Origin: Promethearchaeota archaeon
GTDB taxonomy: Archaea > Asgardarchaeota > Lokiarchaeia > Sigyniarchaeales > SOKP01
Assembly: GCA_016840165.1 (NCBI GenBank)
Contig: JAEOSU010000105.1
Span: 1 to 19,208, forward strand
Direction of reading: 5' to 3'
DNA: 19,208 nt
The notes under the pieces are model-generated. The model saw nothing but the letters and a program-made list of their open reading frames with translations, did not search any database and was not told the DNA's origin. Every line of letters starts with the position of its first letter. The first letter of the stretch is position 1. The translations under genes were made by a program, and so were the position numbers. Of this stretch, positions 5,599 through 7,349 are shown piece by piece.

Positions 5599-6600
5599 AT
5601 GATCGAAAAAGTTCTTGAAAGAATTAATTTTTTACTGAAACGAGCTAATTTTGAAACTTTATCCTTAGATAGTTTTTCAACAAAAAAAAATAAATTTTGT
5701 TTTGATATACTTGTAAAAAGACAAGATTTAATATTCACTATAAAGGTATTTCCCAATATCGATAATCTCAACCAAGATATCCTCCGTGATATGAAATCTT
5801 TATCTCTATTATTAAAATCAAAACCATTATTAATTGGTATAAGAAACCGCTATCAGAAATTAGAGGATAATACTATTTATATAAGAGAAGATTTGCCTTT
5901 TATAACAGTAAACACCTTAGAAAACATTCTTAATAATAATTATCCTTATATCCTTGCTAAAAGAGGAGGGGGTATAACGTTCCTAAATGGTGATTTAGTT
6001 AAAGAGTTAAGAATTAAGCATAATATATCCAGGCAGGAACTAGCAGATAAGATTGGGGTAACTAAGAGAACAATTTGCTCCTATGAAACTGAAAATATGC
6101 GTCCAAGTGAAAAGATCGCTCAAAAGATATTAGAAATATTTGGAGATAATTCTATTTTTAAGCAAATCAATGTACTCGAATGGAATTTTAAATTAAACAG
6201 AGATATCATGATAACTTCAGAAGAGAGCGAATTAAGCCCTTTTGAGGCTCATATATACGAAGTGATTAAAGACATTGGTATCTCTTCTTATTGGTATAAA
6301 AAAGGACCTTTACCCTTCAAATGTTCAATTTATTCTGAAAATTTGGAATCCAAAGAAAGAAATGATTTTTACCCTCTTTTTTCAGGTATTTTTGATGAGA
6401 AAAAGAGCATTAATGAATTAAATATAAAATGTCTTAAGGTCTTTAATAGTTTATTTAATAAACAAGCTCTTTTTATTATAAATAATGACATTAAAATCCC
6501 TGATTCGGAAAAAGATAAGATTCCAATCGTGAAGATTAAAGAATTGGAAAAAATTGATGATGAGGATCAATTTATCGAGTTTATACAAGAATCTAAGTAA
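5599..6600 (+). CDS. Archaeal HTH transcriptional regulator (COG1395-like)
   Basis: CFDILVKR..IKVFPNIDNL N-domain, P.I.A.RGG motif, and central HTH LRIKHNISRQELADKIGVTKRTICSYE. Confidence 0.85.
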   Translation: MIEKVLERINFLLKRANFETLSLDSFSTKKNKFCFDILVKRQDLIFTIKVFPNIDNLNQDILRDMKSLSLLLKSKPLLIGIRNRYQKLEDNTIYIREDLPFITVNTLENILNNNYPYILAKRGGGITFLNGDLVKELRIKHNISRQELADKIGVTKRTICSYETENMRPSEKIAQKILEIFGDNSIFKQINVLEWNFKLNRDIMITSEESELSPFEAHIYEVIKDIGISSYWYKKGPLPFKCSIYSENLESKERNDFYPLFSGIFDEKKSINELNIKCLKVFNSLFNKQALFIINNDIKIPDSEKDKIPIVKIKELEKIDDEDQFIEFIQESK

Positions 6601-6656
6601 TTAACTAAATAACTAAGTAATATTAAAATTGCTAAATTACTCAAATTATGGAAGTT

Positions 6657-7349
6657 ATGAAAATCTGTGGGATAGACGAGGCTGGTAGAGTATAATTCAC
6701 TTCGAATTAACCGCTAAAAGGGCCCGTTATAGGTCCTATGGTAATATGTGGAATTTCTTTTCTTAGCTCCAAGTTGGATTTTTTATCTGAGTTGGGGGTA
6801 AAAGACTCTAAAAAGCTTAGCCCCAAAAAAAGAACTAAGTTAGCTATTCTTCTCAAGGAAAACTGTTTATCATATAAAATAACAATAGTCCCAGTAGATG
6901 AAATTGATGGGAGAATTTCTAAGAAAATTACCCTTAATCGGTTAGAAGAATTAAAAATGGCTGAAATTATTAATGAATTAAAACCAGAAGAGATCTATCT
7001 TGATGCGGCCGATGTAAATGAAAAAAGATTCGGTATGTCCATTAAGAAATTACTATCTTTCAATCCGAAATTTATTATTTCTGAACATAAAGCTGATGAG
7101 AAATATCCGATTGTTTCAGCGGCTTCTATTGTGGCTAAATATGAAAGAGACTCAATTATAGCAGATTTAAAGCAGACATATGGAGATTTTGGGTCAGGTT
7201 ATACCTCTGATAGAAAAACCATTGATTTTATGCGTAATTGGATAATTAAAAACAAATCAATCCCTCCTTTTGTACGAAGATCATGGGAGACAACTAAAGT
7301 TTTGGCAGAAGAACTTATATATAATAAAAAATTGACAGATTATCTATGA
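6657..7349 (+). CDS. rnhB: Ribonuclease HII, two exons: join(6657..6688,6719..7349), 220 aa after splicing (alternative ATG at 6648)
   Basis: Exon 1 gives MKICGIDEAGR and exon 2 gives GPVIGPMV...GVKDSKKL...YLDAAD...HKAD..YPIVSAASIVAK..RD...GDFGSGY.SD, ending in PIP-box-like KKLTDYL. The track ORF (6738) lacks the catalytic DE residues, which lie in the same frame upstream of two TAA codons. Confidence 0.93.
6689..6718 (+). other. Putative 30-nt bulge-helix-bulge intron in rnhB mRNA
   Basis: Sequence AGTATAATTCACTTCGAATTAACCGCTAAA with in-frame TAA at 6693 and 6708. Central helix UGGU(6683-6686)/GCUA(6713-6716); 3-nt bulges AGA(6687-6689) and AAA(6717-6719); closing pairs C6682-G6720 and G6690-C6712; inner stem UAAUUC/GAAUUA. 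Confidence 0.82.

What the first reader, a model, noticed from the sequence alone, without database searches (positions are those of the whole stretch)
6657..6740. tRNA-type (BHB) intron splitting the catalytic motif of RNase HII
Seen: the invariant motif GIDEAGR|GPVIGP is interrupted by exactly 30 nt carrying two in-frame TAA stops, so the unspliced RNA gives only MKICGIDEAGRV*. An AG repeat at both ends allows three equivalent excision registers (6689-6718, 6690-6719, 6691-6720). Only 6689-6718 fits BHB geometry: a 4-bp central helix U6683-A6716, G6684-U6715, G6685-C6714, U6686-G6713; two A-rich 3-nt bulges (AGA, AAA); closing pairs C6682-G6720 and G6690-C6712; an in-register intron stem UAAUUC/GAAUUA with an ACUUC loop; and further imperfect exon-exon pairing (GACGAGG 6675-6681 with CCCGUU 6723-6728). 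Established: the archaeal splicing endonuclease EndA cuts after the second nucleotide of each bulge and RtcB ligates the exons. Applied here, the cuts fall after 6688 and 6718 and give GGU AGA GGG CCC (G-R-G-P), the exact motif. BHB introns in archaeal protein genes are rare; crenarchaeal cbf5 is the classic case. I do not know of one in rnhB. Inference: this lineage splices mRNAs with its tRNA machinery, and such genes are being misannotated as truncated. Caveat: the central helix has two G-U pairs and the flanking helices are imperfect.
Basis: partly seen in the sequence, partly recalled or inferred. Interest (0 to 1): 0.95.

Follow-up and report, generated by a model that had tools for sequence, protein, structure and literature searches.

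The report
tRNA-type mini-intron splitting Asgard RNase HII
The only RNase HII gene of this Asgard (Promethearchaeota) archaeon is interrupted inside its catalytic motif by a conserved 30-base insert shaped like an archaeal tRNA intron, so its mRNA very probably has to be cut and rejoined by the tRNA-splicing enzymes, which papers document inside a coding sequence for only one other archaeal gene (cbf5).

Summary
ATG 6657 opens MKICGIDEAGR. Thirty bases with two in-frame TAA follow, then GPVIGP and an intact RNase HII.

Comparison supports a bulge-helix-bulge (BHB) intron, 6689-6718.
- 26 related Asgard loci (23 distinct sequences) carry a 30-nt insert at the same nucleotide. About 30 close relatives read ICGIDEAGRGPV without interruption.
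- On the 23 sequences the proposed structure pairs in 88.5% of cells, against 23-42% when slid. Eight pairs show compensatory changes.
- In two copies only the EndA rule (cut after the second nucleotide of each bulge) restores the invariant Arg. Simple in-frame removal gives Ser.
- Exon 2 is under purifying selection (dN/dS 0.08-0.21).
- The genome encodes two EndA paralogues and RtcB.
- Its EF-2 and mevalonate kinase genes carry similar 30-31-nt inserts.
- Public annotation calls these rnhB genes as truncated proteins.

Weak points:
- No RNA data could be obtained.
- Minimum-energy folding does not produce the BHB.
- The outer helix is imperfect.

I found no paper reporting an rnhB intron. 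Earlier agents of this scan noted the same rnhB intron on other genomes, both Asgard and DPANN.

Verdict: a new member of a known kind. I put 0.88 on splicing.

The parts
6657..6688 (+). rnhB exon 1: ATG, MKICGIDEAG and the first two bases (AG) of the Arg codon. It carries the catalytic Asp-Glu of the DEAGRG motif.
   Evidence: Sequence. The motif aligns to residues 4-17 of solved T. kodakarensis RNase HII through an intronless orthologue. Changes in this segment across 23 sequences are almost all synonymous.
6689..6718 (+). 30-nt BHB-type intron. It is phase 2, lying between bases 2 and 3 of the Arg codon, and has two TAA in the exon-1 frame.
   Evidence: Same-site 30-nt insert in 26 related loci and precise absence in about 30 close relatives. 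This is the only register with a 4/4 central helix that restores DEAGRGP. Cut rule tested.
6719..7349 (+). rnhB exon 2: the third base of the Arg codon, then GPVIGPMVICG... to the stop at 7347-7349.
   Evidence: Pfam RNase_HII E 8e-41, profile positions 9-199. dN/dS 0.15 against the nearest orthologue and 0.08-0.21 in other intron-bearing pairs.
6683..6686 (+). Central helix H, 5' strand (UGGU, exon 1). It pairs with 6713-6716.
   Evidence: 94.6% of cells paired over 23 sequences. Pair types are UA/UG/CG at the first pair and UG/CG/GC at the fourth.
6713..6716 (+). Central helix H, 3' strand (GCUA, intron).
6687..6689 (+). 5' bulge AGA. The predicted cut falls after G6688.
   Evidence: The bulge is AGA, AAA or AGU in relatives. 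In the AGU copies only a cut after the second base restores Arg.
6717..6719 (+). 3' bulge AAA. The predicted cut falls after A6718.
   Evidence: The bulge is AAA, AAG, ACA, ACG or AUA in relatives. The third base always completes AGA, AGG or AAA (Arg or Lys).
6690..6712 (+). Inner helix h' with its loop: G6690-C6712, a 2x2 internal loop, stem 6693-6698/6704-6709 and loop ACUUC.
   Evidence: The fold holds this hairpin. In relatives it is a stem of up to 9 pairs with a 5-nt loop, and 6 of the 9 pairs show compensatory changes.
6675..6682 (+). Outer exon-exon helix h, 5' strand (GACGAGGC). It pairs with 6720-6728 and is interrupted by bulges.
   Evidence: The pairs at alignment columns 10-13/60-63, 16/58 and 17/55 form in all 23 sequences, and 15/59 in 22 of 23. 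Synonymous sites on both strands never carry A in intron-bearing genes.
6720..6728 (+). Outer exon-exon helix h, 3' strand (GGGCCCGUU).

Best explanation
Bases 6689-6718 are an archaeal bulge-helix-bulge (BHB) intron inside the single rnhB gene of an Asgard (Promethearchaeota) archaeon.

In the pre-mRNA, exon-1 bases UGGU (6683-6686) pair with intron bases GCUA (6713-6716) to form the 4-bp central helix. Two 3-nt bulges flank it on opposite strands: AGA (6687-6689) and AAA (6717-6719). The intron hairpin (6690-6712) forms the inner helix. An interrupted exon-exon helix (6675-6682 with 6720-6728) forms the outer helix.

The splicing endonuclease EndA, here probably a two-subunit (alpha-beta)2 enzyme, cuts after the second base of each bulge, that is after 6688 and after 6718. 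RtcB then joins the exons. The product reads GGU AG|A GGG CCC, which restores GIDEAGRGPVIGP and hence a complete RNase HII of about 214 residues.

Without splicing, translation stops after 12 codons. A restart at ATG 6738 would give a protein without the catalytic Asp-Glu.

What is shown: the anatomy, its conservation and covariation, the presence/absence polymorphism, selection on the exons, and the presence of the enzyme genes. What is inferred: the cleavage and ligation themselves.
For: 1. There is a 30-nt insert at one nucleotide position in 26 related Asgard loci (23 distinct sequences). It is precisely absent, leaving ICGIDEAGRGPV intact, in about 30 members of the same clade and in every other family sampled.
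2. On the 23-sequence alignment the named BHB pairs in 88.5% of cells, against 23-42% for partners slid by 1-3 columns. Eight pairs change on both sides, a value no one of 500 shuffles reached. Helix H is 94.6% paired, with UA/UG/CG and UG/CG/GC types.
3. In L055 (Asgard) and L093 (a Woesearchaeota genome with a 38-nt insert at the same site) the 5' bulge is AGU. Cutting after base 2 of each bulge gives AGA (Arg), whereas removing the in-frame block gives Ser. All 101 uninterrupted homologues have Arg or Lys there.
4. Synonymous sites that must pair never carry A in intron-bearing genes (0 of 18 at Ala3, Gly3, Pro3 and Val3). In intronless relatives 6-9 of 24 carry A.
5. Exon 2 dN/dS is 0.08-0.21 in intron-bearing pairs and 0.12-0.23 in intronless pairs. 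Exon-1 changes are almost all synonymous.
6. The genome has one rnhB, two EndA paralogues that are 32% identical, one of them without the aligned catalytic His, and RtcB. Asgard EndA is reported as the broad-specificity (alpha-beta)2 type (PMC5829648).
7. The same genome has BHB inserts of 30 and 31 nt that restore conserved motifs of EF-2 and mevalonate kinase.
8. The L093 copy folds into the BHB as its minimum-energy structure, with z = -3.8.
Against: No RNA data are available: no RNA run was listed, and no spliced-junction sequence was found in JGI metagenome contigs. Minimum-energy folding never draws helix H in the 23 Asgard copies. The window's fold is no better than shuffles (z = -1.1). 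H has two G-U pairs in the window, and 2-3 copies have a mismatch in H. The outer helix is one pair, then a 2-nt bulge, then further pairs, so the motif is relaxed. The inner helix of the window's copy has a 2x2 internal loop. The sequences are related, so the shuffle controls overstate significance.
Confidence: 0.88

Rival explanations
1. The insert is a true BHB intron, but its removal is inefficient or conditional. Splicing would then act as an on/off control of RNase HII rather than as constitutive maturation.
For: Helix H is weak (G-U rich) and the outer helix is interrupted, and competing folds are more stable. Every copy keeps at least one in-frame stop, usually as the second codon of the insert, so unspliced mRNA yields only a short peptide. 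Removal of the Haloferax 5' UTR BHB intron was suggested to matter for expression (PMC7714728).
Against: Nothing here bears on regulation. Intronless relatives show that the gene works without the intron. In-frame stops are expected often by chance in 10 AT-rich codons and are inherited among relatives.
Confidence: 0.15
2. rnhB is a decaying or N-terminally truncated gene. The protein starts at Met 6738, or at an ATG inside the insert as annotated in public records, and the upstream 11 codons are a relic.
For: Public gene calls give 203/204-aa or 212/213-aa proteins. No spliced RNA has been observed.
Against: The 11-codon exon 1 keeps CGIDEAGR in all 23 distinct copies, with almost only synonymous change. 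Exon 2 dN/dS equals that of intact relatives. It is the only rnhB in a 99.7% complete genome. The truncated form lacks the Asp-Glu of the active site (and my knowledge of the Tk-RNase HII residues D7 and E8). A relic would not show compensatory changes in a BHB.
Confidence: 0.04
3. The ribosome bypasses the 30 bases (translational hopping of the T4 gene 60 kind), or reads through the stops.
For: The gap is short, a multiple of three, and begins with a stop codon close to the take-off point.
Against: Hopping needs matching take-off and landing codons. Here they are AGA against AAA, ACA, AAG, AUA or ACG. Hopping from GGU to the GGN after the gap would delete Arg-Gly. Read-through would need one to three stops to be decoded, and would insert 10 residues into the active site. 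L093's insert is 38 nt and shifts the frame. None of this explains the BHB covariation.
Confidence: 0.02
4. The insert is an assembly or sequencing artefact.
For: None.
Against: Homologous inserts occur in 26 further Asgard loci, from assemblies of many different studies, with their own substitutions.
Confidence: 0.01

Closest known systems
BHB intron in the cbf5 (pseudouridine synthase) pre-mRNA of Crenarchaeota (Watanabe 2002; Yoshinari 2006; Yokobori 2009, PMC2738675)
   Same: It is a short intron inside a coding sequence, within the codon of a catalytic-motif residue. It is flanked by a mostly relaxed BHB, with predicted cuts between bases 2 and 3 of the bulges. The hosts have a hetero-oligomeric, broad-specificity EndA. 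The distribution among relatives is patchy and was read as gain and loss.
   Different: The host gene (rnhB) and phylum (Asgard) differ. For cbf5, spliced cDNA and in vitro cleavage exist; here there is no RNA evidence. This intron is a multiple of three and carries in-frame stops.
Archaeal tRNA and rRNA BHB introns (Marck and Grosjean 2003; Asgard tRNA intron census, bioRxiv 10.64898/2026.10.13.758758)
   Same: The motif geometry is the same (3-nt bulges, a 4-bp helix, half of the motif supplied by exon sequence), and so are the enzymes and the size range. This genome's tRNA genes also appear heavily interrupted: aragorn recognises only 23.
   Different: The host RNA is an mRNA, so the exon half of the motif must also encode protein. 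The outer helix here is built from the codons of DEA and GPV.
BHB intron in the 5' UTR of Haloferax volcanii HVO_1309 (PMC7714728)
   Same: EndA acts on an mRNA. That case was shown by circRNA-seq and in vitro cleavage.
   Different: That intron lies in the untranslated leader and does not interrupt the reading frame.
Unconventional splicing of HAC1/XBP1 mRNA in eukaryotes (Ire1 plus tRNA ligase RtcB or Trl1); from my own knowledge
   Same: A short intron is removed from an mRNA by a protein endonuclease and the tRNA ligase, without a spliceosome, and removal changes the protein made.
   Different: The endonuclease is Ire1, not EndA/TSEN. The substrate is a pair of stem-loops, not a BHB. That splicing is triggered by stress.

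Membership tests
Archaeal BHB intron (substrate of EndA and RtcB) | [quoted passage not shown] | tested here: met
   6683-6686/6713-6716 form 4 of 4 pairs (two are G-U), with bulges 6687-6689 and 6717-6719. Over 23 sequences H is 94.6% paired and covaries.
Archaeal BHB intron (substrate of EndA and RtcB) | Flanking helices h (exon-exon) and h' (intron) stacked on the bulges (strict hBHBh') | tested here: inconclusive
   h' is present: up to 9 pairs in relatives and 7 of 9 in the window. h is a single C-G pair, then a 2-nt bulge, then 2 + 4 pairs. The motif is therefore relaxed (HBh'-like) rather than strict.
Archaeal BHB intron (substrate of EndA and RtcB) | Cutting after the second base of each bulge yields the functional mature sequence | tested here: met
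   The rule restores CGIDEAG(R/K)G(P/S)V in all 24 distinct copies. In L055 and L093 it is the only rule that gives Arg rather than Ser.
Archaeal BHB intron (substrate of EndA and RtcB) | The host encodes the splicing endonuclease and the RNA ligase | tested here: met
   Two PF01974 genes lie above the cut-off (102 and 72 bits) and RtcB scores 556 bits. The paralogues are 32% identical, and one lacks the aligned His.
Archaeal BHB intron (substrate of EndA and RtcB) | Orthologues exist without the insert, with exact boundaries | tested here: met
   About 30 members of the same clade and 70 other archaeal homologues read DEAG(R/K)G without interruption.
Archaeal BHB intron (substrate of EndA and RtcB) | Spliced RNA, a circular intron, or in vitro cleavage is observed | not testable with these tools
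   No RNA run was listed. No spliced-junction DNA was found in JGI contigs.
RNase HII (Pfam PF01351) | Family profile match, and the catalytic DEAGRG segment present | tested here: met
   Exon 2 alone matches at E 8e-41, from profile position 9. Exon 1 supplies GIDEAGR, which aligns to residues 4-10 of solved Tk-RNase HII through an orthologue.
Programmed translational bypass (T4 gene 60 type) | Matching take-off and landing codons flanking the gap | tested here: not met
   The take-off codon is AGA (or AAA, AGU). The codon before exon 2 is AAA, AAG, ACA, ACG or AUA. One copy has a 38-nt, frame-shifting gap.
Self-splicing group I or group II intron, or any other curated RNA family | Match to a curated covariance model; size of hundreds of bases | tested here: not met
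   No Rfam match at E up to 1 in 6400-7000. The insert is 30 nt.

The most novel reading that the evidence does not exclude
Splicing of mRNA by the tRNA-splicing enzymes is routine in this Asgard lineage rather than a curiosity. On this reading many protein-coding genes need EndA and RtcB before they can be translated: at least rnhB, EF-2 and mevalonate kinase in this genome, and more according to unchecked notes of this scan. The DEAGRGPV codons of rnhB would be an insertion hot-spot, because they form an intrinsic inverted repeat that supplies the exon half of the BHB. That would explain unrelated introns at the same nucleotide in Asgard and DPANN archaea.
Probability: 0.55. Interest if true: 0.88.

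Novelty: new member of a known kind. Interest (0 to 1): 0.74.

Why it matters
In the papers I could search, cbf5 is the only archaeal protein-coding sequence shown to need BHB splicing (PMC7714728 says so in 2020; PMC2738675 notes that other cases were only predicted).

A second gene family with such an intron would show that enzyme-based mRNA splicing is a living process in the closest prokaryotic relatives of eukaryotes. The case here is strong on three counts: the intron is conserved across dozens of Asgard species, the same genome holds further examples, and orthologues show clean presence/absence.

There is also a practical consequence. Gene callers truncate these genes or start them inside the intron. 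Catalytic motifs and whole enzymes are therefore scored as missing or defective in Asgard metabolic and replication reconstructions.

The system is also suited to studying how introns are gained and lost, because both states occur within one genus.

Tried and rejected
- Single-sequence folding. The minimum-energy structure of the window's element and of all 23 Asgard copies does not contain helix H, and z = -1.1. My attempt to force the helix with hard constraints did not enforce the pairs, so I do not use those energies.
- RNAalifold on the alignment found only the exon-exon helix and the top of the hairpin.
- A covariance model of the rnhB BHB (R1) found only the rnhB site itself in the genome. 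Only 150 of about 6,300 candidates were scored. I could therefore not show that the genome's other mini-introns are sequence relatives.
- Two genome-wide scans of my own for BHB geometry plus restoration of an open frame gave as many hits with a mirror-image decoy geometry as with the real one. They are uninformative in this AT-rich genome, although EF-2 was recovered.
- RNA evidence: no RNA holder was listed.
- A scan of JGI metagenome contigs for the spliced junction found nothing.
- aragorn's tRNA introns were too few and too doubtful to use as a reference set.
In the window the upstream gene is a conserved PRK04140-type HTH regulator, present in intron-bearing and intronless relatives alike and unrelated to the ORF upstream of L093. 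The L093 ORF has only a sub-threshold LAGLIDADG_3 hit.
- Another genetic code was rejected: neighbouring genes have normal open frames that end in ordinary stops.

Full report
**What is in the window.**
The + strand has ATG at 6657, followed by AAA ATC TGT GGG ATA GAC GAG GCT GGT AGA, which reads MKICGIDEAGR. The next ten codons (6690-6719) read V * F T S N * P L K, with two TAA. From 6720 the same frame reads GPVIGPM and continues to a stop at 7347-7349. The part from 6720 matches Pfam RNase_HII at E 8e-41, but only from profile position 9 of 199. The missing start of the profile is the segment encoded upstream of the insert. Neighbouring genes are fibrillarin, Nop5, archaeal SAM synthetase, an Elp3-like radical SAM protein and HTH regulators. 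The titles of the nearest genome records name Promethearchaeota, the Loki-type Asgard archaea. The genome is 3.6 Mb, 99.7% complete, and has one rnhB match.

Removing 6689-6718, 6690-6719 or 6691-6720 gives the same product. Among registers that restore DEAGRGP, only 6689-6718 has a fully paired 4-bp helix with two 3-nt bulges and a closing intron pair. The single sequence is not convincing by itself. The minimum-energy fold pairs UAG 6686-6688 with CUA 6714-6716 instead, and is no more stable than shuffles (z = -1.1).

**Comparative evidence.**
I collected rnhB loci from the 42 genomes of the genus, from other families of the order and class, and from a scan of genome contigs.
- 27 loci carry an insert between GIDEAG(R) and G(P/S)V. 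In 26 it is 30 nt (23 distinct sequences). In one, L093 from a Woesearchaeota genome, it is 38 nt.
- About 30 members of the same clade, and all sampled members of the other families, read ICGIDEAGRGPV without interruption.
- The inserts align without gaps and share sequence, so the Asgard copies are homologous.
- On a maximum-likelihood tree of the proteins the insert needs at least 4 to 6 changes of state. Intron-bearing clades are sister to intronless clades with strong support. One origin followed by repeated exact losses is the simplest reading, but I did not test it against a species tree.

**Structure.**
- 88.5% of cells form a standard pair, against 23-42% when the 3' partners are slid by 1-3 columns.
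- Eight of 17 pairs change on both sides, a value that none of 500 shuffles reached.
- The central helix is 94.6% paired. Its first pair is UA, UG or CG, and its fourth is UG, CG or GC.
- Six of the nine inner-helix pairs show compensatory changes.
- The pairing drawn by the minimum-energy fold is contradicted by these changes. For example, C or G at the last H position cannot pair with the A or G it would need.
- The sequences are related, so the shuffle numbers are not probabilities. The slid controls, which keep relatedness, give the same answer.

**The cut rule.**
EndA cuts after the second base of each bulge (PMC2738675 uses this rule for cbf5). Applied to all 24 distinct copies, it gives CGIDEAG(R/K)G(P/S)V every time. 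In most copies, simple removal of the in-frame block gives the same protein, so they do not discriminate. Two copies do. L055 (Asgard) and L093 (Woesearchaeota) have the 5' bulge AGU. The rule joins AG to the A of the 3' bulge and gives Arg, whereas block removal gives Ser. All 101 uninterrupted homologues in my set have Arg or Lys at that position.

**Selection.**
- Exon 2 has dN/dS of 0.08-0.21 in twelve intron-bearing pairs and 0.12-0.23 in seven intronless pairs.
- In exon 1 nearly all variation is at third codon positions.
- Third positions that must pair in the BHB never carry A in intron-bearing genes (0 of 18 at the Ala, Gly, Pro/Ser and Val codons). In intronless relatives 6-9 of 24 carry A. 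The Glu codon is GAG in 17 of 18 against 14 of 24.
- These contrasts are between related sequences, so they are indicative only.

**Enzymes and context.**
- The genome encodes two EndA-family proteins (201 and 205 aa), each with the N-terminal and catalytic domains and 32% identical to each other. The second lacks the His aligned with the His of the first.
- This fits the (alpha-beta)2 type, which is reported for Asgard archaea and linked to cleavage of relaxed motifs (PMC5829648).
- RtcB is present.
- aragorn recognises only 23 tRNA genes. This fits published reports of heavily interrupted Asgard tRNA genes (bioRxiv 10.64898/2026.10.13.758758).
- Following leads from earlier notes of this scan, I checked two other genes of this genome. 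EF-2 has a 30-nt insert (contig 1, 7920-7949) with helix UCAG/CUGA, bulges AUU and AAG, and a 9-pair hairpin with a 5-nt loop. Mevalonate kinase has a 31-nt insert (contig 87, 6225-6255) with helix GGCG/CGUC. The cut rule restores DSDDEEQERGITI and LFGEHFVVYG respectively.

**Annotation.**
The closest public proteins (71-96% identical) are 203 or 204 aa and start at the internal Met. Others are 212 or 213 aa and start at an ATG inside the intron (MLKGSV..., MSIGSV...). Intronless relatives are 228-232 aa and contain CGIDEAGRGPV.

**A second lineage.**
- L093 has an unrelated 38-nt insert at the same nucleotide.
- Its minimum-energy fold is a near-canonical BHB with z = -3.8.
- None of 28 sampled relatives of that genome has the insert.
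- The codons of DEA and GPV form an imperfect inverted repeat (GAYGAGGC against GNCCNGUY), in which four or five pairs are fixed by the amino acids. This supplies the outer helix.
- I infer that it makes the site receptive to BHB introns.
In L093 the upstream ORF has only a sub-threshold LAGLIDADG_3 hit. In the Asgard window the upstream gene is an unrelated conserved regulator.

**Rivals.**
- A pseudogene or truncated gene is contradicted by selection on both exons and by the covarying structure.
- Translational bypass fails its defining test of matching take-off and landing codons, and cannot handle the 38-nt copy.
- An assembly artefact is excluded by recurrence in many independent assemblies.
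- Conditional splicing is compatible with everything seen, but nothing here tests it.

**What is known.**
The papers I could search report BHB splicing within a coding sequence only for crenarchaeal cbf5, plus a 5' UTR intron in Haloferax (PMC2738675, PMC7714728). None mentions rnhB. Earlier agents of this scan had noted rnhB introns at this site in other Asgard and DPANN genomes. My results agree with those notes and were obtained independently on this window.

**Verdict.**
The anatomy and its evolution are shown. Cleavage and ligation are inferred. I put 0.88 on an EndA/RtcB-spliced intron. It is a new member of a known kind.

Noticed in passing
L093:1424-1500 (Woesearchaeota genome G066): An unrelated 38-nt BHB insert sits at exactly the same nucleotide of rnhB. 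Its minimum-energy fold is a near-canonical BHB (z = -3.8). None of 28 sampled relatives of that genome has it.
   Followed up: partly
L093:414-1427: The ORF ending at the start of rnhB exon 1 has a TrmB-type HTH and a sub-threshold LAGLIDADG_3 hit (E 0.0026), with GLWLAEGD and GFFAGEGN motifs.
   Followed up: partly
own genome, contig 1: 7920-7949: The EF-2 gene carries a 30-nt BHB insert with an in-frame TAA. It has helix UCAG/CUGA, bulges AUU and AAG, and a 9-pair hairpin with a 5-nt loop. This is the same architecture as the rnhB intron of relatives.
   Followed up: yes
own genome, contig 87: 6225-6255: The mevalonate kinase gene carries a 31-nt frame-shifting BHB insert between LFGE and HFVVYG, with helix GGCG/CGUC and bulges AAA and AAC.
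   Followed up: partly
own genome, whole: aragorn recognises only 23 tRNA genes, 13 of them with introns placed doubtfully, in a genome that is 99.7% complete. Most tRNA genes are probably interrupted beyond what the program can model.
   Followed up: no
window 6675-6682 and 6720-6728: The codons of the conserved DEA and GPV residues form an intrinsic imperfect inverted repeat. The protein motif itself therefore encodes the outer helix of the BHB.
   Followed up: partly
own genome, contig 14 near 37158 and contig 4 near 49673: There are two EndA paralogues, 32% identical. The contig 4 copy lacks the His aligned with the His of the contig 14 copy, which fits a catalytic alpha subunit and a structural beta subunit.
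   Followed up: partly
window 5599-6600: The gene upstream of rnhB is a conserved PRK04140-type HTH regulator. Its C-terminal tail (...DDEEEFIELIQES) is found upstream of rnhB in nearly all relatives. In intronless relatives the rnhB open frame overlaps its end, and there is no canonical start codon between its stop and ICGIDEAGR.
   Followed up: no
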